64,000 bases of DNA from Bacteriovoracia bacterium (GTDB lineage: Bacteria > Bdellovibrionota > UBA1018 > CAIPTA01), in NCBI GenBank assembly GCA_050246755.1, contig JBFWVL010000001.1, forward strand, positions 800,001-864,000, read 5' to 3'. The translations under genes and the position numbers were made by a program. This document shows, piece by piece, positions 20,293 to 35,160 of this stretch (positions within the stretch are counted from its first letter, which is position 1; every line of letters begins with the position of its first letter). The notes beneath the pieces are model-generated. The model had not been told where the DNA came from. It did not search any database and worked only from the letters and a program-made list of their open reading frames with translations.

Positions 20293-20369
20293 GCGGGATT
20301 AGCTCAGTTGGCTAGAGCGTCTCGTTGCCAACGAGAAGGTCGCCAGTTCGAATCTGGTATCCCGCTCCA
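20293..20369 (+). tRNA. tRNA-Gly (GCC)
   Basis: Cloverleaf GCGGGAT...; anticodon arm TCTCG-TTGCCAA-CGAGA; T loop GTTCGAAT; encoded CCA. Confidence 0.97.
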
Positions 20370-20883: not shown

Positions 20884-22950
20884 ATGTCGCCCTTGCAACC
20901 ATACCTCTCACAACCTAAATACCGCGCAGATATTGACGGGCTTAGGGCGATCGCCGTACTTTCTATCGTTATTTTCCACGCGTTCCCCTCCTTGGTAAAG
21001 GGGGGCTTCATCGGAGTGGACGTCTTTTTCGTCATCTCAGGCTTTCTCATTTCTACGATTATTTTTGAGAATCTGGACAGAGGCACGTTTAGCTTTGTTG
21101 AATTTTACGTGCGTCGGATCAAACGGATTTTTCCGGCCCTTCTCCTGGTCCTAGTCGCATGCTACGTATTTGGCTGGTTTGCCCTGCTGGCAGAAGAATA
21201 CAAACAGCTAGGTAAACACATCGCCGCTGGTGCTGGCTTTTTTTCTAACTTTGGTTTTTGGAGCGAGGCGGGATATTTTGACAATTTAGCAGAAATTAAG
21301 CCGCTACTACACTTATGGAGCCTTGGGATTGAAGAGCAGTTCTATATAGTTTGGCCAGTATTGCTTTGGCTGGCTTGGAAAATGAAGCTTCATCTCTTAA
21401 AAATTACGATCTGTGTAGCGGCCCTATCTCTCTACCTTAATCTAACTGGCATAAAAACGGACCCCGTAGCCACATTCTATTCCCCCCAAACTCGTTTCTG
21501 GGAAATACTTTTCGGCTGCCTATTGGCCTGGGCCATGCTCTATAAAAGGGGGGCGCTTGATGCCGTTCACTCCAGGCTTACTCATCGGCTCACCCCTGAT
21601 GCGCCTCGAGAAAAGCCAGGTGCTGATAGTAAAACGCTAACTAATACTTTCTCACTCCTTGGGCTTTTGCTCTTGTGTTACGGATTTGGGAGAATCAATA
21701 ATGAGCTCGGCTTTCCTGGCATCTGGGCAGTCTTTCCCGTACTTGGCACTACGCTAATCATTCTTGCCGGCCCCAACGCGTGGCTTAATCATCATTTATT
21801 ATCAAATAGGATTTTAGTCTGGTTTGGTTTGATAAGTTTTCCGCTCTACCTGTGGCATTGGCCCATGCTCTCATTTGCTCGCATTATCGAAGGCGATGCT
21901 TTGAATGACAACGTCCGTATAGCCATGGTTGCCCTATCTGTTCTACTTGCTTGGCTTACGTATCTGGTTGTAGAGCGCCCGGTACGGCTGGCAAAGCGTA
22001 GCGGGCGCAAGGCTATTGCCCTCGCTGTGCTGATGGCTGTCGTCGGTGTTGTGGGTCACTACACAGAAAGAAAGAATGGGCTGAGCTTTAGAAATAGAAT
22101 TCTTGAAGATAATCTTAAGAAGTTTTCTTGGCCGGAATCCAAAAATAGAGACCCCGAGTGCATAAAAAAATTTGGCGGATTATTCACCGACTATTGCCTA
22201 ATTAGTAATCCAAAAAAAGATCCAGAAATTATTTTATTGGGCGATTCTAACGCGAACCATTTCTATGAAGGCTTGAAAGCGGTATTTGGTGACAAAAATT
22301 TTCTTATGATCGGGCAAGGCGGCTGCTTACCGTTTGTTGGCCTAACGGTAAAAATGAATCAAATCGAGTTGGAATGTGACCGCGAACTGAATCCCGCATT
22401 GGAGCTAATTAAATCAAATCGGTCTGTGAAGACCGTAATTATTTCTATGCAAGGACAGACCTACGTTAACGGTCAGATAACCTGCAATGGCGACACAGGC
22501 TTCTTAGAGGTGCACGAGGTTGGTAAGAATGAGCCCAGAGATAGACTTACTTTATTTGAAGAGGGCATGCGAAGGACCTTAAAACTATTACTAGATGAAA
22601 GAAAAAAAGTGGTCTTCATCCTGAGTATTCCCCGGCTTAGCTATTCACTCTCCGAATGCATGGGCATTCGCCCTCTTTTGTTTTCGGCAAAGCCAAGCAT
22701 GAGCCAATGCGCAATGCCTAAAGAGGAATATTTAAGCGATAGCAATGCGTATATAGGAATCGTAACCAAAGTTTTGAAGGACTTTCCTACCGTCAAAGTT
22801 TTTGATCCTAGCGCTGTATTGTGTGATGAGAAAAATTGCTATGCAGAGAAAGATGGCCAAGTGCTGTATCGAGATGACCGTCATCTATCCAGCTTTGGCT
22901 CTCTGTATATGGGAAGAGCCATTAAGCAGACAAGACTGGTCTCTGATTAA
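20884..22950 (+). CDS. OafA/YrhL-type O-acyltransferase (acyltransferase-3 + SGNH)
   Basis: YRADIDGLRAIAV, GVDVFFVISGFLI, RRIKRIFPAL, HLWSLGIEEQFY; periplasmic LLGDSNA and YRDDRHLS (GDS...DxxH). Confidence 0.92.
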   Translation: MSPLQPYLSQPKYRADIDGLRAIAVLSIVIFHAFPSLVKGGFIGVDVFFVISGFLISTIIFENLDRGTFSFVEFYVRRIKRIFPALLLVLVACYVFGWFALLAEEYKQLGKHIAAGAGFFSNFGFWSEAGYFDNLAEIKPLLHLWSLGIEEQFYIVWPVLLWLAWKMKLHLLKITICVAALSLYLNLTGIKTDPVATFYSPQTRFWEILFGCLLAWAMLYKRGALDAVHSRLTHRLTPDAPREKPGADSKTLTNTFSLLGLLLLCYGFGRINNELGFPGIWAVFPVLGTTLIILAGPNAWLNHHLLSNRILVWFGLISFPLYLWHWPMLSFARIIEGDALNDNVRIAMVALSVLLAWLTYLVVERPVRLAKRSGRKAIALAVLMAVVGVVGHYTERKNGLSFRNRILEDNLKKFSWPESKNRDPECIKKFGGLFTDYCLISNPKKDPEIILLGDSNANHFYEGLKAVFGDKNFLMIGQGGCLPFVGLTVKMNQIELECDRELNPALELIKSNRSVKTVIISMQGQTYVNGQITCNGDTGFLEVHEVGKNEPRDRLTLFEEGMRRTLKLLLDERKKVVFILSIPRLSYSLSECMGIRPLLFSAKPSMSQCAMPKEEYLSDSNAYIGIVTKVLKDFPTVKVFDPSAVLCDEKNCYAEKDGQVLYRDDRHLSSFGSLYMGRAIKQTRLVSD

Positions 22951-23057: not shown

Positions 23058-23591
23058 TTATTTAATCAGGCACGGCGACGAGAAATCCAAAGATAGCGAA
23101 TTTGCTGCCGAATCAAGCTTGTAATCGATAGCAACCTGACAAGCGCCACTGGCAGGAAGATTGATCTTAACTTCTTTTTCAAGTTTTATTTTGGGCCTAT
23201 TCTTACCCATACCCTCTGGGTAATAGGCCCCTCTGGCAGTTACTGTGACAATTCTTATCTTCGGAGATTTTTGGCCAGCCTTTTGAAAGAAGAGCAATTC
23301 GTATTTACCAAACCTAGCATCTTCCAGATCAAATTTAGCGCTACTCAAAGAGGGCTCGCTTTCCCCCGTAATGCTCCCTAAATAGCTATTATCGTACCCG
23401 ATCTTGCCCGGAAGCTCTTTCCTCGTTAAAGGATCGATTCCACCCTTTACGCCACCCGGCAAAGTAAATTGGAAATCAGCAAATTGGCCATCCGCCCAAA
23501 TCGCGACTATGTTTTCCGACCCCTTGGCCCAGGAGCTATTTGCTCCGAGGAACAGCAGAGATACCAGCAGCAGGTTTTTGGCTAACTTCAT
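23058..23591 (-). CDS. Secreted hypothetical protein resembling the post-peptidase domain of the upstream 1299-aa protein
   Basis: ATG 23591 preceded by GGAG; signal peptide MKLAKNLLLVSLLFLGANSSWA; overlaps the upstream gene by 56 bp. Confidence 0.7.
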   Translation of the reverse strand: MKLAKNLLLVSLLFLGANSSWAKGSENIVAIWADGQFADFQFTLPGGVKGGIDPLTRKELPGKIGYDNSYLGSITGESEPSLSSAKFDLEDARFGKYELLFFQKAGQKSPKIRIVTVTARGAYYPEGMGKNRPKIKLEKEVKINLPASGACQVAIDYKLDSAANSLSLDFSSPCLIK

Positions 23592-26500
23592 TTGTTTCTC
23601 CGTTGATCCGTAGCACCACAGGGCCATCTAGGTCTATTCTGGCCTGATTGATCTGAAAATTCAAAGCCTCAACAAAACCCTCATTGCGCTCAATCTCTGC
23701 CTCAATTTGGGCCCGGCGGGCCTCCGTAAGCTCCTTAGAAAGAAGTTTCCGCAGCTTCTCATTCTCGCGACTATATTTGCTAATGCCACGCGAAAGCTCC
23801 GTCTTTATTTTGCGATCGACCATGTAGGAGTAAACCTCCCAATAACTAGGCCCCTGATTACTTACAGCCGCCTCAGCAGCAAAGAGCCGCTCGGTCTTGT
23901 TTCTGGTCGCAATCTGCCTACCATCGAGGTAAACGTCTACTCCGTATTCGTACTCGCCATTTAGGTCGTTCAAGAGCTCAACTGAGACAACCGAGCGAGC
24001 GCCAATATTTACCGTGGAATTTGTGGTGGCAATTTGAACGAGTTTATTCGTTTTTCGCTCACTCTTTGGCGCTACACCAGCAAATAAATCCCCCCCGACG
24101 AGAAAAGCCATTCCGAGGCTCCTCGTGTAAGGCACTGAGGGCGGAGTCTCAAAATTATGAATCTCAACGTGGATCAGCCCATTTTGATAAAGAACAATCC
24201 GAACAGGTTGATCTCCGTCCTCTTCATAAACGAAGTCGCTGCCACTATGCACGAAAGTTCCAGCAGGAATATTACGTTTCCATGCGCTTCCATTCACAAA
24301 AACCGAGATGTCCTGGGTATCTGGGTAGTAGACGCCGCCACCGCCAGTCAACATTCCCTCAATCAGGATTGAATCCGAGCCAACTTCAAATCTACTAAAC
24401 TGCATCGTACCTTTTAGCACCTGCATATCCGAGTAGCTAAAAGTATAGGAAGAGGGCGCGCTAGGAGAGGAAGTAAATGGGATCTGCAGAAATTTATTCA
24501 GCACTCCGTTTGGCCCCATCATCGAAATTTCAATCACATCGCTAACGGTTTCGCTGCTCGTAATCTCTACGGTGAAGGCATCACCATTGTGGACGGGATG
24601 AACCCATACACTATTACTACCTTCCGAAATATCGTTCCCACCATCCGAGTCATCAAGACGCTCAGAAGTAAAGTTCGAGTTTGGAATATTCTCAAGAACT
24701 TGGCCGTTAGAATTGATCCCGGTCGTTCGGTTGCTCGAATCTTTGAGCCTAAAGGCCGTTGCTGCGCTCATACTCACGTAAACTGAGCTGCTATCACTAG
24801 CTATCTTTGCCTGCGGGGGCGCCGCATGAATGGTTCGGTAGTCCTTAAATTTATTTTCTGTGAACCAGAGATCATTTAACGTTTTGATTCCATTTTTCCC
24901 TGGATCGATGATCGCAAGAGTCTTTACAAAATTTCCATTTTTATCTTTCACCATGGCAATGCCGTTGGCCACGACGAAGTGCGAGGTGCCTTCTCGGCGC
25001 TTTTGTTTATCCCTCCGCCGGTTTTCGACAAATCCCTCTGGAAATCCTTCAATATGCAATATCACTGGCTCGCCAGAGAGAACTAATGTTTCTACTTCAG
25101 CAAACGAAGAACTATCCTTTTTATCATACACGAGCCCAAGTGACCTCATCGCATCTTTAATTTCGTCAGGCTGAGGATCATGCTTGGCATTAAAAAAATT
25201 CGGGATCGAAGAAAACCACGAATTAATACCACCAGGCGTGACCTCTTGAGATTTATCGGAAGTATCATCGAGCGGAATGGCGTCCACACCATTCGCCTTT
25301 ATGAGCATCGCAATCGACGACAAAAAGCAGCCTTTTTTCCCTATGGTGTTCGTGCTCGAATCATAGATATCTTTTTTCCAGGGAGTGTTTTTGTATTTGG
25401 CATCAACAGCCTGCGCGAGCCGATCGACTTTCACCACATGCGCTATCGCTCCAACTTTCACCGAGGCCGTCGCGGTAGACGAAGCGCCAGATGAATCTCT
25501 AACGGTGAGTTTTATCGGGTAGGTATCAGGATCGTCTCCCGTAGGCACATCAACCTCAGCGCCGGAATATGTCCGCGCAGCGCCTTTTTTTGGCTTTACC
25601 GTCCACTCGTAAGTCAGGCCTCCCTGCGGCGTCGAGCTCGCGCCACTTAAATGGAATGAATCATGAATCAATGCATCGATAGGGGCAGTAATTTTTGCCG
25701 TAACGGCATTTGGATCGCCCTCTCGAGAAATCTGCACATTGACGGTGACCTGTCCCGATGCAGGAATGGAGTAATTATCTTGAACATTCACTACAAAACT
25801 ATCGGAAGTAGCAGTTGTATTTGCATCCGCTGTGTAAGTTACGATCCCAGAATGAAGTCCGACGCTCGCCGTGCCATGACTTGACCCGCCGTTGACAACA
25901 GCGTAGGTCATGGTCTGCCCAGCATCAGGGTCATGTGGGCTTATCGTGATTGTCGCCGGCACGCCGGGCCTTACCGTCACGGGATTCGGAGAAGCAGTGG
26001 GCTGCGGTGGATGATTCTGAAAGGCCCCAACTCGCACTAAAAGTTCTGCGGTGTCTGTGGAATTCCCGCAATTGGCCACGCTTAATTGAATTCGATAATT
26101 TCCCGCTTCCGTTGGCGTGAACGCATTCGTCTTCTTATAAGTTGGCCCATCTAGTGGCGCGGGGCTCGAGTCGTCTTCCCGAAATGCCAACCACACGAAG
26201 GCCATGTCGTTATTTTGGTCTTCCGTAGAAGCTCGCCCATCTAGAAAAATGATATCGCCAAGCGTTGCGTCGATTACGGTCTGCAGGGGCCGTTCTCTAT
26301 TTTTTAATTTTTTTGCCCCGGTAATATTCGCATTGATAACGGCATGCACGCTCCCGAAATTTTGCGTGCCCTCTTCCGCGCGATAAATGCCCCGGATTCC
26401 AGTATCGAGACCGGCATAAAACATCACCAAATTGTCTTGAACGATTTTGGGATGAAATTGGATGAAATCAACTGCGGCCCCAGCGATACAGGCGCTCGGA

Positions 26501-27435
26501 GCCACGATTTCGCGAATATCCCCGTCTGTGTAATTCATCGTTTTTAACGTAACGCCGGCGTTTAATTTATATAAAATGCGCCCGCCCTTGGCATCGAAGG
26601 TTTGGCTATTGGGATCGAGGAAGGAGGAGGCCTCGCCAATTATCCCGAGTGCCCCCGTTTCCGGGTCAAGCTGGTAGCGCCCTTCCCGCACAAAGAACTG
26701 ATTTGAATAAATCGCCCCCTCAAAAATAATTTTCCCATTTTCGTCCAGCGCATACGTTCCAGTGCGCGGGCGAGCCTGAAAAATTAGATCCGATTGGGGA
26801 TTCCCACCTTTAAAAAATCCCTGCTCCACCCAAGGAGTATTGGGATTAGACGGCGGATTTAGCCCAGCCAAGAAAACTACGTGGCCGCTTGGAGTAACTA
26901 GGGGCGGGCCAAGCGATTGGAAAGTGCCGGGAGCGCCGCCTTGAGTGGCGGTCGCGAGAAGCTGCCCGTCAAAAAAGATGCGTCCATCCAGCGTTTGAAA
27001 GGCAAGCTGCCCGCCTTCGTTAAGGCTCATGCTAAGAATCGGCGCCGAGAAAGTCCACGGCATCACCTCTTGGAAAGTGCCGGTAGGATTAGCCGCGTTG
27101 ACTCTTGTAATCCCAACCGAGCTATCGGTAAAAGCGGTGTACATCGCGATCCAGCCGGAATGGTCAAAGGCAGCACTAAAGATCACCGAAACTTTTTTTC
27201 CCGTGTTTACGGTTTGCGAAACGCCGGCGGTGATAACTTTTGTGACAACGCCTTGCTCAGTTTTTCGGTAAACCGCCGCTCCATCGCGAAAGAGATAGGA
27301 GCCGTCGGCGAGTTGAGTAACCTCCTCGCCGAGAACACCGTATTCTTCCGTGGTAGCAATGGCACGCAGGCGAACTGCGTGCGCATTGCTGACCAGCAAA
27401 AACAGACCGAAAAGAACCAGGGCAAGGCGTTTCAT
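23536..27435 (-). CDS. Large secreted multidomain protein: NxxGxxAF-type propeller, PKD/cadherin-like domains, C39-like cysteine peptidase, C-terminal shared module
   Basis: Signal peptide; LNEGGQLAF; DGRAS/GNYRIQLSV and YEWTV...IKLTVRD PKD motifs; NHPP...DPD cadherin-like; Q..W..Y..TIGKKGCFLSS / SHFVV / IIDPG triad. Confidence 0.85.
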   Translation of the reverse strand: MKRLALVLFGLFLLVSNAHAVRLRAIATTEEYGVLGEEVTQLADGSYLFRDGAAVYRKTEQGVVTKVITAGVSQTVNTGKKVSVIFSAAFDHSGWIAMYTAFTDSSVGITRVNAANPTGTFQEVMPWTFSAPILSMSLNEGGQLAFQTLDGRIFFDGQLLATATQGGAPGTFQSLGPPLVTPSGHVVFLAGLNPPSNPNTPWVEQGFFKGGNPQSDLIFQARPRTGTYALDENGKIIFEGAIYSNQFFVREGRYQLDPETGALGIIGEASSFLDPNSQTFDAKGGRILYKLNAGVTLKTMNYTDGDIREIVAPSACIAGAAVDFIQFHPKIVQDNLVMFYAGLDTGIRGIYRAEEGTQNFGSVHAVINANITGAKKLKNRERPLQTVIDATLGDIIFLDGRASTEDQNNDMAFVWLAFREDDSSPAPLDGPTYKKTNAFTPTEAGNYRIQLSVANCGNSTDTAELLVRVGAFQNHPPQPTASPNPVTVRPGVPATITISPHDPDAGQTMTYAVVNGGSSHGTASVGLHSGIVTYTADANTTATSDSFVVNVQDNYSIPASGQVTVNVQISREGDPNAVTAKITAPIDALIHDSFHLSGASSTPQGGLTYEWTVKPKKGAARTYSGAEVDVPTGDDPDTYPIKLTVRDSSGASSTATASVKVGAIAHVVKVDRLAQAVDAKYKNTPWKKDIYDSSTNTIGKKGCFLSSIAMLIKANGVDAIPLDDTSDKSQEVTPGGINSWFSSIPNFFNAKHDPQPDEIKDAMRSLGLVYDKKDSSSFAEVETLVLSGEPVILHIEGFPEGFVENRRRDKQKRREGTSHFVVANGIAMVKDKNGNFVKTLAIIDPGKNGIKTLNDLWFTENKFKDYRTIHAAPPQAKIASDSSSVYVSMSAATAFRLKDSSNRTTGINSNGQVLENIPNSNFTSERLDDSDGGNDISEGSNSVWVHPVHNGDAFTVEITSSETVSDVIEISMMGPNGVLNKFLQIPFTSSPSAPSSYTFSYSDMQVLKGTMQFSRFEVGSDSILIEGMLTGGGGVYYPDTQDISVFVNGSAWKRNIPAGTFVHSGSDFVYEEDGDQPVRIVLYQNGLIHVEIHNFETPPSVPYTRSLGMAFLVGGDLFAGVAPKSERKTNKLVQIATTNSTVNIGARSVVSVELLNDLNGEYEYGVDVYLDGRQIATRNKTERLFAAEAAVSNQGPSYWEVYSYMVDRKIKTELSRGISKYSRENEKLRKLLSKELTEARRAQIEAEIERNEGFVEALNFQINQARIDLDGPVVLRINGETNEVSQKPAAGISAVPRSK

Positions 27436-27448
27436 TTTCGACTCCTAG

Positions 27449-30400
27449 TTATCTCGCACTGCAAGCCGGCGCGTAGCCTAAACCGCACGACTTCTCAAAC
27501 AATTTGCTGGCACCAAAGGCATCGCCGTCTTCTTGGTACATTTTCCCAAGGAAGTAGCAAGCCGGGGCGTTCTTCGTGGCGCATGCGCCAGATAGCTGCT
27601 TGCGCTTGGCTTTGCGCGCAGGATCTTCCGAATCCTCTTCACGCTTAACTTTTATTTTGAATTCTTCATTCACGGTTACGGGAACGTAAGCAACATGGAC
27701 GTTACCCTCATCGTCGTGCACTTCCAGGTTGGGAAAGTATACTCCCGGATTGGCGTACGTATGTGAAGCATACTCCGATTCATCCACGCATCCGTCGCTT
27801 GGACAAGCATCGTAGTCTTCGTAGCGCCATTTATAGCTGGTGATGGTTCCACCGGCCACGTCGTAGGAGGCTAGCGCATCTGCATTAAAGGCAAAGGGCA
27901 CAACGCCGCTTACTTCTTGAACGGACGAGACGGCTCTCGGAGAATGACCAGTCGCCACCACGTAGATTTCCCATCCTAAGTATCCCTCTTCTCCGGCACT
28001 CGAAGTAACTAGAAGCGTCGGAAAGTGGTTGAAAGGATATGAATACGTATGCGTTCCAGTCACGCCGCTAAAATTGCAAGGACCGCCTGGATTCGTTAGG
28101 CAATCAAAAAAACCATCGTTGGTCTGCCATTCGTAGGAATCTATAGTTCCTCCCGGATTGGGATTAAAAGAGCCGTAAGCATCAAAGGTCATGGGGGTGC
28201 CTACTAAAATTTCTCGGCCAGGAAGCAGCGCCGCGCTGAAGGTACTTGCCGTACCGGCCGCGGGGGCATTTACGCCGACGTAAATTCTAACGGAAGCCTC
28301 TCCTTCACCACCGTTTGGATCCCGGACACGAAGTCGAACATTGAATTGCCCGGGAGTATTGAACGTATGCGAGCGAATAGGTGAGCTCGTTACTTCCTCC
28401 GCGTTTTCAAACAACCAACGATACTCGGGAGTACCGCCAAGCGAAGTGGTCTCGCTCGCGTCGAAGACAACGGTAAGCGGAAAAGTACCGGTGATCTTGT
28501 TCGGAGAAATTTTCGCTACCGGCACAGCTTTGTCCGTGACTACAACGGTGGTGGTGGTGGAAGTCGTTGCGCCCTTATTGTCTTTGGCCGTGATCGTGGC
28601 CGTATAGCTTCCGGGCAATTGATAATCATGCAGTGCACTGACAAACCAAGCGGTGCCTGGAGTGAAAACACTGCTTGGGAACGTTTCAACAGGTCTTCCA
28701 TCTCCAAAGTCGATGGTCCACTGAACGATCGATCCATCCGAGTCGGTAGCCGGGACGTTGGCAATCCGCATCGTCGTTGGCGAACCTTGGCTGCGAACAA
28801 ACGAGAAACTGGGACCAAGTACAGGCGGGCGATTGGGAATCGTGATTGCAATCGTCACTTCCCCACTCTTTGCGGGCGATCCATTGTCCGTGACACGAAC
28901 TTTTAACGAATCGCTGCCTTCGTAGGTAGTGGCCGCATTAAAAGTAACCAGGCCGGAAGAATTCACCGAGGCCGTTCCATGCAAGGGATTAACCACGATG
29001 GCATAGGTATGAGTTTGCCCCACATCGAGGTCGTTTGCAGCGACCTGAGAAGTTCCAGTATTGCTCGAAACCGTGATGCTTGGTGCCGAGGGAACAGGTG
29101 CCTGATTTTCCGCCGAAACGGTAACTGGAATTATTACGTCGCCGGAAAGACTTGGCGCTCCGCTGTCCGTTACGCGAACGGTAATAGAATCCGATCCGGA
29201 GTATCCGGCGGTTGCATTGTAGTAAACGACGCCCATTAAAGAGACGGAAGCCGTTCCATGGGTAGGAGCAGAAACAACGCTGAAGGTCCAGCTCTGGTTT
29301 CCATCGGCGTCGTTCGGCGCAACCGTAGTGGTACCCTGAATATTCGAAACGGTGGTGACGGGTGGTGCCGAAGGGGCGGGCGCATGGTTAGTAGGACCCA
29401 CTACTTCGATCGTGGTCAGCGAAGGCTCACTCACCAAGTGATCGCTAGTATTTATCTCCCTAACTTTAAGCTCAAAAATATAGTAGCCAGCGGCCGTAAG
29501 CGTTAGGTGCGGCTGAATCTCGGTGGAGATCACCTGGCCAACGGTTAATCCGGAACCCAGCGGAGCATCCACTACTTTCCATTCATAAGAAAGAGTCGTG
29601 CCCGGATTGGGATCATAGGAACCTGTGCCATCCATAGACATATCCGATCCAAGCAGGAACGAATGATGCGGGCCAGCCACCGCGACCGGTTGCACATTAT
29701 TTTCAAGAGAAGAGTTTGTTACAAAATATGCGTTTCTGAGGAAGCTATTGCGCACTTCCGTAGAGCCGCTAAGCGGAGGAAAACGGACTTCGAGATCTTT
29801 AATTCCGGTTAAAGACCCAAAACTAGGGGCAACCGCCGTAATCGTAGTAGCATTTACAAGGGAAGCACTGGCACTAAGCCCGCCAATCCTGACCGTCATT
29901 CCGGGGACAAAATTTTCACCGCTGATGACGATCTGATTACCGCCGCTAGCGGATCCCACCTGCGGGGAAATCGCAGTCAGCCTAGGATAAGCTGCATTGC
30001 TGGCCGCAGGCACTACATTGAAAGTAAACGTCTGGTTTGCAACCGGAGTCTTTAGCTCAGCAAGCTGGCGGATAAGCTCGTTCTTGATCGCGATTTTTTC
30101 ATCACGCTGGGAAGTAAAGGTCGCTTTCTTCACAGGATCAGTTTCAACATCTATTTTCTGCTGAAGCTCAAAAATTTCTTTGGAGAGCCTATCAACAGAG
30201 GTGCGAATCTGATTGGCAAGGTCTTTCCTTTCTATGGCAAGGCCAATGGTGAGATCGTGAGAGCGTTGTTCCGAAAAGCCACTAGAGTGATAAATCCATA
30301 AGTTTGGCGAGCTATGAATCAAGCCAACTGGCGCATTGTCGATTGTGGCGTTTAGCAAAATATTTGAGTCGGTATAGGAATTTAAGGGAGCAATGAAAAT

Positions 30401-30604
30401 AGAAAATTCGGTGCCCTGCTCCACTGAGGCGGAAGGAGACGGCATGAATTTTACGATCGGCGCTTGCTCGAGTTTTCGAACCTTTCTTGTGTGCTTAAAG
30501 CTTTTAATGAGCTTATAGGCGGCATTATTCGTTTTATCTCCGCTAGCAAAGGCCGAAGTTGCAAAAAAAGACAAAGCAAGGGCAGCAAAAAGGTACTTTT
30601 TCAT
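27449..30604 (-). CDS. Large secreted adhesin/scaffold-like protein: shared module, IPT/TIG, PKD and cadherin-like repeats, C-terminal Sel1-like repeat
   Basis: Signal peptide; ISPQVGSASGGNQIVISGENF (IPT); repeated NxAP..D.D.G (cadherin-like); WTIDFGDG and FDAxxS.D (PKD); ACYFLGKMY...KSCGLGYAPAC. Confidence 0.85.
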   Translation of the reverse strand: MKKYLFAALALSFFATSAFASGDKTNNAAYKLIKSFKHTRKVRKLEQAPIVKFMPSPSASVEQGTEFSIFIAPLNSYTDSNILLNATIDNAPVGLIHSSPNLWIYHSSGFSEQRSHDLTIGLAIERKDLANQIRTSVDRLSKEIFELQQKIDVETDPVKKATFTSQRDEKIAIKNELIRQLAELKTPVANQTFTFNVVPAASNAAYPRLTAISPQVGSASGGNQIVISGENFVPGMTVRIGGLSASASLVNATTITAVAPSFGSLTGIKDLEVRFPPLSGSTEVRNSFLRNAYFVTNSSLENNVQPVAVAGPHHSFLLGSDMSMDGTGSYDPNPGTTLSYEWKVVDAPLGSGLTVGQVISTEIQPHLTLTAAGYYIFELKVREINTSDHLVSEPSLTTIEVVGPTNHAPAPSAPPVTTVSNIQGTTTVAPNDADGNQSWTFSVVSAPTHGTASVSLMGVVYYNATAGYSGSDSITVRVTDSGAPSLSGDVIIPVTVSAENQAPVPSAPSITVSSNTGTSQVAANDLDVGQTHTYAIVVNPLHGTASVNSSGLVTFNAATTYEGSDSLKVRVTDNGSPAKSGEVTIAITIPNRPPVLGPSFSFVRSQGSPTTMRIANVPATDSDGSIVQWTIDFGDGRPVETFPSSVFTPGTAWFVSALHDYQLPGSYTATITAKDNKGATTSTTTTVVVTDKAVPVAKISPNKITGTFPLTVVFDASETTSLGGTPEYRWLFENAEEVTSSPIRSHTFNTPGQFNVRLRVRDPNGGEGEASVRIYVGVNAPAAGTASTFSAALLPGREILVGTPMTFDAYGSFNPNPGGTIDSYEWQTNDGFFDCLTNPGGPCNFSGVTGTHTYSYPFNHFPTLLVTSSAGEEGYLGWEIYVVATGHSPRAVSSVQEVSGVVPFAFNADALASYDVAGGTITSYKWRYEDYDACPSDGCVDESEYASHTYANPGVYFPNLEVHDDEGNVHVAYVPVTVNEEFKIKVKREEDSEDPARKAKRKQLSGACATKNAPACYFLGKMYQEDGDAFGASKLFEKSCGLGYAPACSAR

Positions 30605-30628
30605 AATGGTTCCTTCAGTTAGAAAAAC

Positions 30629-31663
30629 TTATAAAACGTTGATGGTTAAACTTTGCGGCGAACCGACTGGCCGCCGACCCGCGGTAAGCTCATTCTCTGC
30701 TCTCTCGATAAGGAGAAGATTGCGCGCTTTCTCTTGTTCGAGGGCCGCGATCGTATCGGGGTCTGTCGTCTCACTTAGAGCCTTTTCTATTCTTTCGTTT
30801 TCGCATTGCAGAAAATCAACGGTCTGATTAAGGCTCTCGGCGAGATGCCGGTCCTGCAAATACACGGAGACGGTCCAGGTTTTTTGCCCGACGGAGTCGA
30901 GTGGCGGGGTAACGGCGACAGCGAAATTTCTCGAAGCGTTTCTAACTGGCAGCGCTTCTCCTTCGAGAGTGGAGGTGGAAAAATATTCGAAGTCAGAGCT
31001 CTCAGGGGCGGCAAGGTAATGTACGACCAAGCTTGCGCTCTGCCCCAACTGATAATTCGCCTGATTTGAGCCGAGCTTAAACAGCGGATTTACCGGAACA
31101 GGCGGCGAAGGAGGATTACGAACGACTTCAATTCCGTTAATTTGCGCATGATCGACGACAGTCGCAAAATCAATCACGATATTGCCAAGGCCATTAGCCT
31201 GAGCGCTTACTTCCCGAACAACCGCAATATTTTTTCCGCCCGCCTCAGCGAAGATATCGAAATTCGTGAGGGAAGGTACGCTGCTCCCATTTACGAAGAC
31301 ATTGAATATGCGGGCTCCAGGAACGCTCCAATAAATTTCCGCCAGATGAAATCGGATCAAATATGACGCGCCCGCGCTAAGCCCGCCCACGACGTAGTTA
31401 AAATTTCCGTAACGAACCGACCTATATACTTCCTCTGGCGCAGGATTCACTACGTTCGCGCGATTAATCGGCAGCGTGCTCTCATAAGTAGCTCCCCCGC
31501 TGAAATCCATATCGGCCGAGAAATTCCCTATAGCCACGGCAGAACCACTATTGATCGCTACCTCGTCAACAGAAAAATTTCTTACTTTTGCTTCGGCGAA
31601 CGCCGAGCCAGAGAGCACAGAGAAAAAACACAGAATAGAAAAATATGCCTTCAACACAATCAT
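30629..31663 (-). CDS. Secreted malectin-domain protein with C-terminal shared module
   Basis: AINSG, VYRSVRYGNFNY, FHLAEIYW..GARIFNVFVNG, FDIFAEAGG, INGIEV; Pro linker PPSPPVPVNP. Confidence 0.88.
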   Translation of the reverse strand: MIVLKAYFSILCFFSVLSGSAFAEAKVRNFSVDEVAINSGSAVAIGNFSADMDFSGGATYESTLPINRANVVNPAPEEVYRSVRYGNFNYVVGGLSAGASYLIRFHLAEIYWSVPGARIFNVFVNGSSVPSLTNFDIFAEAGGKNIAVVREVSAQANGLGNIVIDFATVVDHAQINGIEVVRNPPSPPVPVNPLFKLGSNQANYQLGQSASLVVHYLAAPESSDFEYFSTSTLEGEALPVRNASRNFAVAVTPPLDSVGQKTWTVSVYLQDRHLAESLNQTVDFLQCENERIEKALSETTDPDTIAALEQEKARNLLLIERAENELTAGRRPVGSPQSLTINVL

Positions 31664-32228: not shown

Positions 32229-32537
32229 CTACTCTGCCCGCCTTACCTTCTGCGGACCATTTTTTTCGCCTAGCGCCGAAGCTAAAATCTCTCTTTCGGT
32301 AGCGTTAATAATGTCAATCAACTCGCTGGCAGGAATATCATATAGCCTAATCAGCACCTTTAGTTTCTTAACCGGTGGAAGCGCTATCCCTCTCTCGAAA
32401 TTGGAAATAAATTGAGCCGAGGAATACCCTAACAGCCGAGCCACACGCCCTTGGGTAAGATTTTTAGCCGCACGGGCCGCCTGCAAATAAACACCCACTT
32501 CTTCATATTTCCTAGAAATCAAATATTGTTTCGTCAT
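32229..32537 (-). CDS. XRE/Cro-family helix-turn-helix regulator
   Basis: LQAARAAKNLTQGRVARLLGYSSAQFISNFERG. Confidence 0.88.
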   Translation of the reverse strand: MTKQYLISRKYEEVGVYLQAARAAKNLTQGRVARLLGYSSAQFISNFERGIALPPVKKLKVLIRLYDIPASELIDIINATEREILASALGEKNGPQKVRRAE

Positions 32538-32805
32538 CGTCGTTCCAAGGTTAAGAATTTCTTCCCGTCACCCTCACTTAGTTACCGAAATGTGTACCGA
32601 ATATATACTTAATATTAATCAGCCAAAAACTTTTTAAAATGGGCGTTTGCTTTTGCCATCAAATCACCTTTCTGCGCCGAATCAATGCGTTTCTATTTGA
32701 CAGAACATCAATATATTAAAGTTATATATATTCTCCTTAAGAGAGCAACGGGCTTAACCGATAGATCGGAGGCCACGGCACAAACGAAAGCGACATGGGT
32801 ACTCA

Positions 32806-33741
32806 ATGCAAAAGGCCTCTTACTCTCGGATAACGCAACAACTCGACTTTTACCCCAACGCGGGCCCCCTGGTGGCTCACATTACTGGGGATGCATTTAT
32901 TCTAACGGCATTTCTTTTTACCAATCACGGTAAACTCTATGCTGTATCGCAACTATTGCTTCCGCTTCTAATGTTTCGCGCCTTCGCCCTAATGCACGAT
33001 TGCGTGCACGGAAGCGCGACAAAAATAAAGGCACTAGGAGATGGCATCGGCATTGTCACGGGAGCCCTTTGCCTTCTTCCCTATGAGCCTTGGAAAAAAA
33101 TTCATCTGCTGCACCATAAGTGGACAGGCAATCTAGATCAAGACCCGTCCATGGGCCTTATTAAGCAGTTTCCGGCATTCAGTCGCGCGCGGGTGAGTAT
33201 TCTAAATTTCTGCTGGCGGCATAGGCTTCCCGGCCTGGCGATTTCCCAGCATTTTGTCTTCTGGGCGAAGTCTTATAAATTCGTGCTCACTGCCGAAAGT
33301 CGGGCGGAAAAAGTGAAAAACGCGCTTTCGATTCTTGTTCCGATACTTCTGTACGCAGTGTTTAGTTGGACGAAAAACGTTCCGGGCCTACTGCTTTACC
33401 TGGCAATGGTCGAGATCATTAACTTTCCTCACCACCTGCAAATGCCCATGCTAGAAGGAAGAAATTCTTTTCCCGTATATGAGCAACATCAGACGGCGCG
33501 CTCATGCCATTATCCAAGATGGTTTTCCCGGAATGCACTTAATAATTTTAATCTCCACATCGAGCACCATCTCTTTCCGCGCCTGCCCTGGTACCGATTA
33601 GACACCGCTCGCGATCTCGTACGCGCCGAACTCCAGGGCGAATATACGGCAGGCAATGATTGGATGCGGGAGAATCGACAATGGCCCATCGAAAAAGTTC
33701 TCGCTAAGAATCTGACCCCACCAGCAGAAAAGGCGGCATAG
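32806..33741 (+). CDS. Membrane fatty-acid desaturase family protein
   Basis: Three His boxes HDCVH, HLLHH, HIEHH(LFP); hydrophobic segments. Confidence 0.9.
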   Translation: MQKASYSRITQQLDFYPNAGPLVAHITGDAFILTAFLFTNHGKLYAVSQLLLPLLMFRAFALMHDCVHGSATKIKALGDGIGIVTGALCLLPYEPWKKIHLLHHKWTGNLDQDPSMGLIKQFPAFSRARVSILNFCWRHRLPGLAISQHFVFWAKSYKFVLTAESRAEKVKNALSILVPILLYAVFSWTKNVPGLLLYLAMVEIINFPHHLQMPMLEGRNSFPVYEQHQTARSCHYPRWFSRNALNNFNLHIEHHLFPRLPWYRLDTARDLVRAELQGEYTAGNDWMRENRQWPIEKVLAKNLTPPAEKAA

Positions 33742-33745
33742 GAAA

Positions 33746-34444
33746 ATGGAAAAATTATCAAACGTCTCCGCTTACAAACTATTCATATTGCCGGGACGCT
33801 GTCCGGCGGGCTTTGAGCACATATCGTTCCACAACGAGGTTTATGCTTTTTGGAAGCAATTCTGGGCAAGCGTGTTTAAAGAGAACAATACCCCAAGCGC
33901 TCCCGACGCCAATATCTTCTACCGCCAGGATTTCGTGGGTGTAGTGACGAAAGAAGAAAAAATCGTTGGTACGGTGTTCTTCACCGAAAACAATTTAGCG
34001 AGCGATGTAGTGTCCGAGATCGGCTACTTTTCCCGCCCCTATGTGAATGAGTTCAGCCAAAGAATGCGACGAGATAAAATTCATACGTTGTCGACCTTAG
34101 AAATGCTGACGGTGGCGCCTGAATTTCGAAAAAAAGTAGCAGGCATCTCATTTGGTACTGTCCTAATCGGAATCGTAATGGAAGCCTTTAAGGCTAGCGG
34201 CGCCGAGATCATTTTTGGCCCTGTGCGTACGGACAATGGCGCGGACAAGCTCCTGATCGATTTTGGCTGGAAACTAATTTCCGACGTCTACTCCATGCAC
34301 GGCACACCGGTGGCCCTCTCAGCCCTCTTTCGCGATGATCTCAAAGCAAGCGAAAGCTCTCTTCACCAAAAACTGGTCGAAGATCTCTGGCATAACCGCA
34401 TGGATTTGCGCAAATCTGATCTAAGGATGCTGAAGGCAGCCTAG
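33746..34444 (+). CDS. GNAT-fold acyltransferase, possibly LuxI/FeeM-like N-acyl synthase
   Basis: KIVGTVFF strand, motif-A-like LEMLTVAPEFRKKVAG, motif-B-like ADKLLIDFGW; 4 bp downstream of the desaturase. Confidence 0.55.
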   Translation: MEKLSNVSAYKLFILPGRCPAGFEHISFHNEVYAFWKQFWASVFKENNTPSAPDANIFYRQDFVGVVTKEEKIVGTVFFTENNLASDVVSEIGYFSRPYVNEFSQRMRRDKIHTLSTLEMLTVAPEFRKKVAGISFGTVLIGIVMEAFKASGAEIIFGPVRTDNGADKLLIDFGWKLISDVYSMHGTPVALSALFRDDLKASESSLHQKLVEDLWHNRMDLRKSDLRMLKAA

Positions 34445-34449
34445 TTATT

Positions 34450-35160
34450 TTAGATAAAATGAATGCTCTCACCCGTCTGATCGCTGCTAGCAAGCACTTC
34501 TTTAGCAGTGGTGGAGGCTATCCAAGCAATCGCTTGGCCGTCCCGAAGTAGCGGAGCGATATGACCAAATGTTACTTTCACGATTTTTCGGTTTTCAGTC
34601 GCGCGCTCGCGCATATAGTGCTCTGGCCCCTCAAGAGGTAGGCACGTCTTCATTTTGGCAACCTTTTCCACATGATCAAGAATGATATTCGTAACGGATT
34701 TGGATCGCTCATAGAGGTAGTCCCAGCTACGTCCGAAAAAATCATCGATCGTATAGTCGGAAATATCAAAGAAGGTCAGATTACGAAAAAGCTGCGTTCC
34801 CTCGAAATCGAAAATTTCTACGATTTCCTCTCCCGTTAGCTGGTTAATGAACTCTTCTGGGATCGAGACGCGAAACCGGAAGGCAATCGACCGTAATGCC
34901 TGCCGGGGATTACGAAGGGCATCGATGCTTTCTTCTTCGAGGTCCTGGCAGATGAGAAAATAATCTCGAAGCTGCCTAAAATATTTTTCCTTGTCGGCAA
35001 TGGGTAGGAGACGGAAATGCTCTAGGCCACCCGCCGAAAAGGTACGCCTGTTGATCCCGTTACGAAGGAGGAAATGCTGAAATTGATTCACAAGCGCCAG
35101 GTATTGTTGATCAATCTCCCCTGACTGGAGCTCGTGAGCTTTTTTTAGGGAAACCTGCAT
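34450..35160 (-). CDS. Hypothetical protein with probable C-terminal PAS-like domain
   Basis: IVEIFDFEGTQLFRNLTFFDISDYTIDDFFGRSWDYLY fits the PAS N-terminal pattern (D..G.I.f.N..F....GY..ee..G); ends with PLLRDGQAIAWIAS beta-hairpin. Confidence 0.55.
   Translation of the reverse strand: MQVSLKKAHELQSGEIDQQYLALVNQFQHFLLRNGINRRTFSAGGLEHFRLLPIADKEKYFRQLRDYFLICQDLEEESIDALRNPRQALRSIAFRFRVSIPEEFINQLTGEEIVEIFDFEGTQLFRNLTFFDISDYTIDDFFGRSWDYLYERSKSVTNIILDHVEKVAKMKTCLPLEGPEHYMRERATENRKIVKVTFGHIAPLLRDGQAIAWIASTTAKEVLASSDQTGESIHFI

What the first reader, a model, noticed from the sequence alone, without database searches (positions are those of the whole stretch)
23600..31085. Three co-transcribed secreted proteins share an unrecognised Ig-like plus helical-hairpin module: candidate modular extracellular complex
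Seen: a module of about 150 aa (beta-rich segment, roughly 60-aa antiparallel amphipathic helix pair, final beta strand) occurs at the C-terminus of the malectin protein (~31085-30629), the N-terminus of the 1051-aa protein (~30457-30011) and the C-terminus of the 1299-aa protein (~24048-23600). The cores align without gaps: YLQDRHLAESLNQTVDFLQCENERIEKALSETTDP / AIERKDLANQIRTSVDRLSKEIFELQQKIDVETDP / YMVDRKIKTELSRGISKYSRENEKLRKLLSKELTE, ending in LTINVL / FTFNVV / LRING. Apart from generic PKD/cadherin spacers, each protein carries different cargo: a glycan-binding malectin; an IPT/PKD/cadherin stalk with a Sel1-like cap; a propeller plus cysteine peptidase. Inference: the helical hairpins are a hetero-oligomerisation (docking) device that joins sugar recognition, a spacer/scaffold and a protease into one surface machine, conceptually like cohesin-dockerin. 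In a probable predator this could act in prey or biofilm attachment and digestion. I do not recognise this module as a named family.
Basis: partly seen in the sequence, partly recalled or inferred. Interest (0 to 1): 0.85.

Follow-up and report, generated by a model that had tools for sequence, protein, structure and literature searches.

The report
Unnamed domain linking secreted predator proteins
Three neighbouring secreted proteins share a real, uncatalogued protein domain that occurs in complementary versions in gene clusters of Bdellovibrio-type predatory bacteria, probably joining sugar-binding parts, a long stalk and an interchangeable enzyme or toxin into one surface complex, though the binding itself is not established.

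Summary
The shared module is real. It is a ~150-aa Ig sandwich with a two-helix hairpin inserted before its last strand. It has no Pfam or NCBIfam family, and no listed solved chain covers both parts. It occurs 9 times in this genome and in 413 protein clusters, patchily across one phylum that includes cultured Bdellovibrio.

The modules fall into subtypes A, B, C and D. The window encodes one A, one B and one divergent C. 20 of 34 clusters carry A+B+(C or D), C and D never co-occur, and natural B-A-D fusions exist. The tandem A-D protein is predicted as one rigid unit.

Cargo is variable: C39 or zincin proteases, or neighbouring RHS proteins with unrelated tips, followed by small immunity-like genes.

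Best reading (~0.5): a secreted hetero-oligomeric scaffold that presents interchangeable antibacterial effectors. Binding, the role of the hairpin and toxicity are inferred, not shown.

The parts
30629..31663 (-). Gene A, 344 aa: signal peptide (by eye), malectin, C-terminal module of subtype A
31136..31555 (-). Malectin domain (aa 37-176), PF11721 E 4e-16
30632..31087 (-). Module A (aa 193-344): Ig sandwich with helix hairpin (H80-106, H110-136) before the last strand
27449..30604 (-). Gene B, 1051 aa stalk: signal peptide, module B, TIG, PKD/Big_9 repeats, Sel1/Hcp-like cap
30011..30457 (-). Module B (aa 50-198)
27452..27640 (-). Cys-rich Sel1/Hcp-like cap; conserved Cys in 23 aligned stalk proteins
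23536..27435 (-). Gene C, 1299 aa effector-like protein: signal peptide, unassigned beta-rich N-terminal region (probable propeller), Big_9/PKD, C39-like peptidase, beta domains, module C
24898..25341 (-). Peptidase_C39_2-like domain (E 1e-7) with Cys703/His819/Asp844 motifs, also kept in the orthologue on L051
23599..24048 (-). Module C (aa 1130-1279), divergent; placed in clade C by the tree but only marginally in the leave-out test (70.1 vs 67.9 bits for A)
23058..23627 (-). Small secreted-type gene (likely start 23588, 176 aa) overlapping the end of gene C; no family, no paralogue, GC 0.46; candidate immunity protein or inhibitor (inference from position)
20293..20369 (+). tRNA-Gly at the edge of the lower-GC stretch (~20.4-35 kb) that holds the operon; no att-type repeat found

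Best explanation
The module is the assembly unit of a secreted, multi-subunit effector-presentation complex of Bdellovibrionota. Each subunit leaves by Sec (signal peptides) and probably crosses the outer membrane through the type II system (inferred). Complementary modules then associate, minimally one A, one B and one C or D. B carries the conserved TIG/PKD stalk. A carries a lectin or propeller (malectin, RCC1) or nothing. The third slot is either an effector's own C-terminal module (C: C39-like or zincin protease) or the D half of an A-D tandem, in loci where the variable cargo is a neighbouring RHS/YD-shell protein. A small gene after the effector protects the producer. In this window the complex would be malectin-A + stalk-B + C39-peptidase-C, with the 176-aa gene as candidate immunity. 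The likely targets are the envelopes of prey or competing bacteria. Shown here: family, fold model, subtypes, co-occurrence, fusions, cargo variation. Inferred: binding between separate chains, stoichiometry, export route, target, toxicity, immunity.
For: Subtypes: a tree of 265 modules gives clades A 105, B 62, C 31, D 62, R 4, with 1 unplaced (supports 0.81-0.99). They track position: 49 of 62 B are N-terminal on cargo proteins and 59 of 62 D are the second half of tandems. Most modules from loci fetched later were typed with clear margins. Co-occurrence: 20 of 34 clusters have A+B+(C or D), all 17 D clusters have A and B, and none of the 34 has both C and D. Fusions: P0025 and P0050 are B-A-D, P0008 is B-A, and 59 A-D tandems were paired. 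The A-D tandem folds with pTM 0.85, as high as the single module, which suggests a fixed module-module orientation. Hairpin net charge is acidic in A and B (-2.9, -3.6) and near neutral in both C and D (+0.5, +0.3). Cargo swap: P0003 shares only the module region with 15 other C-type proteins, 10 of which carry HExxH. 12 of 17 D clusters have an adjacent RHS protein (9 by Pfam; 3 by a motif rule). Of 14 such large proteins, 77 of 91 pairs are related, while none of the 10 extractable tips match each other. One tip is Tlde1. Arrays of C-module remnants each followed by small secreted genes occur on L002, L049 and L059, and one such gene is TIMP-like. C39-type papain-like peptidases are listed as toxin domains of polymorphic systems (PMC3482391, passages). 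GspD is present.
Against: Module numbers per cluster vary from 3 to 8, and 8 of the 11 C-containing clusters show only C modules (remnants, contig edges, or a lone effector on L061), so a strict trimer is not forced. Kin share operons, so the tallies are not independent, and the two triple fusions are close relatives (one event). Window module C types only marginally, and the L051 orthologue's module scores slightly better as A. The pTM argument has no same-method control and no interface was inspected. Three C-type proteins have lost HExxH, so catalysis is not always needed. Most RHS neighbours carry no module, so their physical link to the scaffold is only positional; one lies on the opposite strand (L044). 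The window peptidase is internal, unlike a classical C-terminal toxin tip.
Confidence: 0.5

Rival explanations
1. The module is a sorting or anchoring tag. Each protein uses it independently to be recognised by the type II secretion system or a common surface receptor, without modules binding one another.
For: It sits at either terminus of unrelated cargo, like a portable tag. GspD is present. Lone C-type effectors exist.
Against: 40 of 151 proteins are signal peptide plus module only, and about 35 are two modules only, which a tag would not need. Subtypes keep a fixed order in fusions and a fixed combination in operons.
Confidence: 0.17
2. The modules polymerise head-to-tail into a fibre or ring of variable length, with A, B and D as repeating subunits and cargo-bearing subunits as tips or branches.
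For: Module counts of 3-8 per cluster, with extra stand-alone B and A genes and repeated A-D tandems.
Against: Minimal clusters with exactly one A, one B and one C or D recur (window, L040, L041, L044, L055). The model shows a complete seven-strand sandwich with no obvious missing strand. No pilus assembly genes were seen next to the clusters.
Confidence: 0.13
3. The complex assembles as proposed but serves adhesion and nutrient scavenging (a cellulosome-like surface digester), not toxin conflict. This is.
For: Lectin (malectin, LamG), PKD and protease cargo. Catalytically degenerate zincins exist. An RHS protein of B. bacteriovorus has a pilus-related rather than toxin role (PMC3818213, passages).
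Against: Unrelated RHS tips including Tlde1, small genes after each effector, remnant arrays, a TIMP-like neighbour, low GC and patchy distribution are the pattern of conflict loci.
Confidence: 0.15
4. The module is a locally duplicated spacer domain with no joint function.
For: Ig-like spacers are common in these proteins.
Against: Module-only secreted proteins, stable subtypes at 17-22% identity between types, and conserved combinations across families.
Confidence: 0.05

Closest known systems
Polymorphic toxin systems, RHS/YD-shell type with Sec/T2SS export (PMC3482391; abstract and passages seen)
   Same: Related cores with unrelated tips, small downstream genes, remnant arrays; a C39-like peptidase as possible toxin domain.
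   Different: Linked to a conserved set of secreted module-bearing subunits not found in the searches made. In C-type loci the constant part is C-terminal and the enzyme internal; remnants keep the module, not the toxin.
LXG toxin-Lap1-Lap2 tripartite complex of T7SSb (PMC10801868; abstract and opening paragraphs seen)
   Same: Proposed logic: an effector's helical region plus two small partners form a three-part unit.
   Different: All-helical, cytoplasmic export signal of Gram-positive T7SS. Here an Ig+hairpin fold with signal peptides, and no EssC over the cut-off. Analogy only.
GlgE domains N and S (PMC4663749, passages seen)
   Same: A beta-sandwich with a helical insert before its last segment (N 1-122 and 205-220, S 123-204), used in dimer contacts; best Foldseek hits.
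   Different: TM 0.43-0.51, rmsd 10-11 A, 12-15% identity. S has four helices against two here, and GlgE is a cytoplasmic GH13 enzyme.
Cohesin-dockerin (cellulosome); features recalled, no paper read
   Same: Proposed plug-in assembly of secreted binding and catalytic subunits.
   Different: Two unrelated folds and Ca-binding dockerins, against one fold in several subtypes here; no Pfam match.

Membership tests
Polymorphic toxin system | Conserved body with variable C-terminal toxin tip | tested here: met
   For RHS neighbours of related loci: 77 of 91 pairs related, 0 matches among 10 tips.
Polymorphic toxin system | C-terminal toxin tip in the window protein itself | tested here: not met
   Peptidase at aa 699-846 of 1299; the C-terminus is the conserved module.
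Polymorphic toxin system | Cognate immunity gene directly downstream | tested here: inconclusive
   Small secreted-type gene overlaps the effector end but has no family; a TIMP-like gene in another cluster.
Polymorphic toxin system | Orphan toxin-immunity cassettes | tested here: inconclusive
   Remnant-plus-small-gene arrays on L002, L049, L059, but the remnants hold the module.
Polymorphic toxin system | Toxicity and neutralisation | not testable with these tools
   Needs expression assays.
Cohesin-dockerin | Cohesin or dockerin sequence family | tested here: not met
   No Pfam hit over any window module at E<=0.1.
Cohesin-dockerin | Cohesin fold | tested here: inconclusive
   Many beta-sandwiches match the Ig part about equally.
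GlgE N/S domain | Beta-sandwich with helical insert before the last strand | tested here: met
   Topology in the model; loose Foldseek match.
GlgE N/S domain | Four-helix S domain and GH13 catalytic domain | tested here: not met
   Two helices; no GH13 hit in the proteins scanned.
LXG-Lap (T7SSb) | EssC-type T7SS in the genome | tested here: not met
   Best 104.8 bits against cut-off 778 in a 95.7% complete genome.
LXG-Lap (T7SSb) | All-helical partners without signal peptide | tested here: not met
   Ig+hairpin fold; N-terminal signal peptides by eye.
T6SS Rhs effector system | T6SS sheath gene | tested here: not met
   No VipB match in this genome; relatives' genomes not tested.

The most novel reading that the evidence does not exclude
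Bdellovibrionota have their own, undescribed toxin-presentation machine: a secreted hetero-oligomer built from paralogous Ig+hairpin modules (A, B, C/D) that couples exchangeable target-recognition heads (malectin, RCC1, LamG) on a PKD stalk to exchangeable effectors (proteases, RHS-caged toxins). This would give predators, at least this one lacking T6SS and T7SS markers, a combinatorial weapon for kin competition or prey attack.
Probability: 0.35. Interest if true: 0.88.

Novelty: new variant of a known kind. Interest (0 to 1): 0.72.

Why it matters
The domain family is uncatalogued in the libraries searched and organises otherwise disparate 'hypothetical' secreted genes into one recurrent system. 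It occurs in named records of B. bacteriovorus and other cultured Bdellovibrio, so it can be tested directly. It offers a candidate answer to how Bdellovibrio RHS proteins and secreted proteases are displayed or delivered, and to what might underlie strain-variable prey range or predator-predator competition. If the modules bind by subtype, they would also be a small natural set of heterospecific docking domains.

Tried and rejected
Complex prediction of modules A+B+C with C as partner: verdict 'no answer'; runs 0.43/0.31/0.12, median 0.31 against a mark of 0.32, controls 0.00/0.00/0.10; not used either way. RNA runs: no RNA holder listed. Inter-module covariation on 59 A-D tandems: top inter-module z 4.8, no clearer than intra-module noise; inconclusive. 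Fold searches: no listed chain covers Ig and hairpin together; matches are to the Ig part (Z up to 12.2, 77-91 residues) or the hairpin alone (59-68 residues); the tandem model's best TM is 0.24; the wide VIA search was not run on the tandem. ESM Atlas for module A: best feature score 0.80, TM about 0.5, leads only. P0004 looked like an A-C fusion but reads as a deletion or assembly chimera of A, B and C pieces; not used. The 176-aa gene is not detectably homologous to the post-peptidase domain of P0003. No PDB sequence relative for the peptidase. Promoter and terminator scans at chance level. No att repeat of tRNA-Gly. Weak VirB5/TrbJ/T4SS hits and the 'type IV secretion system protein' label on P0125 read as coiled-coil noise. 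Nine single weak genome hits (E 4e-7 to 7e-5, mostly hairpin only) were not counted as members. Word-index protein searches were insensitive (3 and 5 hits). Earlier scan notes: nothing relevant. Literature searches that showed no description of the module: (listings), plus term searches in PMC3539863 (no RHS/RCC1/PKD mention) and bioRxiv 2023.11.21.568195 (passages). No supplements were read, and most subscription papers are not searched.

Full report
Observation. The three ORFs, their coordinates and the quoted peptides are correct. The genes are 24 and 13 nt apart. A fourth, small secreted-type gene overlaps the end of the largest one. Pfam confirms malectin, TIG/PKD/Big_9 and Peptidase_C39_2 and finds nothing over the module. 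NCBIfam finds nothing on the window's module A, and only weak or off-module hits among 52 aligned members. Pairwise, A-C (Z 16) and A-B (Z 8) are significant but B-C is not. Profiles built from other genomes link all three far above shuffles.

Fold. AlphaFold2 on a 52-row alignment gives a seven-strand Ig sandwich with a 57-residue helix hairpin between strands 6 and 7 (pLDDT 97.8, pTM 0.85). Among 48,161 representative chains, the listed matches cover either the Ig part or the hairpin. Foldseek's best hits are GlgE domains N+S, which share the insertion topology (PMC4663749, passages) but at TM 0.43-0.51 and rmsd 10-11 A.

Distribution. An iterated HMM over 27,614 reading frames of this genome finds 9 modules in three clusters: this one, a four-gene cluster (L001) and an IS-disrupted one (L002). 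The representative library holds 413 clusters at E<=0.001. 7 of 61 relatives match. In the phylum sample 25 of 401 match, 16 of them strongly; nine single weak hits were set aside. In one other family 15 of 182 match, 11 of 44 in one genus. Named records are B. bacteriovorus, Bdellovibrio spp. and a Bdellovibrionales MAG. Other phyla were not searched. The window cluster is lower in GC (0.50 against 0.546) and lies next to tRNA-Gly. It is an accessory, probably mobile, trait.

Architecture. Of 151 proteins (the best 150 library hits plus P0001), a rough length rule gave 40 signal peptide plus one module, 35 two modules, 36 module then cargo, 23 cargo then module, 13 two modules plus cargo, and 4 with three matched stretches. 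A tree of 265 distinct modules separates A (stand-alone, malectin-fused, first of tandems), B (stalk N-terminus), C (effector C-terminus), D (second of tandems) and a small R group at the N-terminus of large proteins. Identity is 25-30% within and 17-22% between types. The window has one A, one B and one C, though its C is divergent and only marginally typed in the leave-out test. Among 34 clusters (duplicates and extensions dropped), 20 have A+B+(C or D), all 17 with D also have A and B, and none has both C and D. The other 14 are C-only (8) or lack a third type, mostly at contig ends. Two related proteins fuse B-A-D, and one fuses B-A. The A-D tandem is predicted with pTM 0.85, which suggests a fixed arrangement; there is no same-method control, and I could not view the interface. 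These points are the basis for hetero-assembly; they are indirect.

Cargo. The window's C39-like domain keeps Cys703/His819/Asp844, as does an orthologue on L051. Of 16 C-type proteins compared, 10 carry HExxH, three full-length ones have lost it and two are fragments; P0003 shares only the module region with the others. D-type clusters instead neighbour RHS/YD-shell proteins in 12 of 17 cases. Their cores are related and their tips are not; one tip is Tlde1. Small secreted genes follow the effectors. L002, L049 and L059 hold repeated C-module remnants, each followed by such genes. One of the four mutually similar L002 genes is TIMP-like by Atlas structure (TM 0.67), fitting a zincin inhibitor. 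This genome has GspD but no VipB and no EssC over the cut-off.

Mechanism. The most likely reading is Sec/T2SS export, association of A, B and C-or-D modules, target binding by the lectin or propeller head, reach from the PKD stalk, and action by a swappable effector with a downstream protector (about 0.5 overall; module-module assembly of some kind about 0.75, summing the readings that need it). Whether the hairpin or the Ig face docks is open: the hairpin's conserved hydrophobic positions mostly form one heptad stripe, and type-specific residues occur in both parts. Rivals are an independent sorting tag, a variable polymer, a non-toxic adhesion and digestion complex, and a functionless spacer.

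Comparison. It works like a polymorphic toxin locus joined to a plug-in scaffold, with the three-part logic of LXG-Lap (PMC10801868, abstract and opening paragraphs). It fails membership of LXG-Lap, cohesin-dockerin, GlgE and T6SS systems on the features tested. The related RHS loci meet the variable-tip criterion of polymorphic toxins (PMC3482391, passages), while the window protein itself does not. Six literature searches showed no description of the module.

Verdict. A real, unnamed domain family that defines a recurrent secreted system in Bdellovibrionota, testable in cultured strains. Novelty: new variant of a known kind, with a new domain at its core. Interest 0.72.

Noticed in passing
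L002:692-9052 (G000:C1 ~28.7-37 kb): IS3-disrupted array of two C-module remnants and four mutually similar small secreted proteins, one TIMP-like by Atlas structure: a possible inhibitor or immunity graveyard for zincin effectors.
   Followed up: partly
P0040, P0067, P0136: Full-length C-type proteins homologous to the zincin effectors but without the HExxH motif: likely pseudo-proteases.
   Followed up: partly
window 20884-22950: OafA-like acyltransferase-3/SGNH gene (GC 0.45) between tRNA-Gly and the operon, on the opposite strand; possible surface-glycan O-acetylation.
   Followed up: no
window 32229-35160: Low-GC group upstream of the operon: HTH_3 regulator, fatty-acid-desaturase-like gene, and 232-aa and 236-aa genes without Pfam or NCBIfam hits.
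   Followed up: no
L052:2-3643: RHS protein with a C-terminal Tlde1 domain in a metagenome contig with the module cluster.
   Followed up: partly
L034:11180-12805, L036:7597-10879, L047:3096-5144: Further cargo on modules: an unassigned helical-looking domain, a vanadium-haloperoxidase/PAP2-like domain and a PQQ-type propeller; large LamG-repeat proteins lie in the same operons (L034, L037).
   Followed up: no
L046:10346-13504: Large protein with an R-type N-terminal module, a PEGA domain and a C-terminal tip that resembles a zinc peptidase (recalled motif, untested), followed by a small gene.
   Followed up: no
L044:13884-20000: The RHS gene is transcribed divergently from the module operon.
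   Followed up: no
L043/L050 region: The cluster sits directly beside the mraY-murD-ftsW-murG-murC cell-wall genes (read by eye from translations).
   Followed up: no
P0004: Appears to be a chimera of A, B and C module pieces (deletion or mis-assembly).
   Followed up: partly
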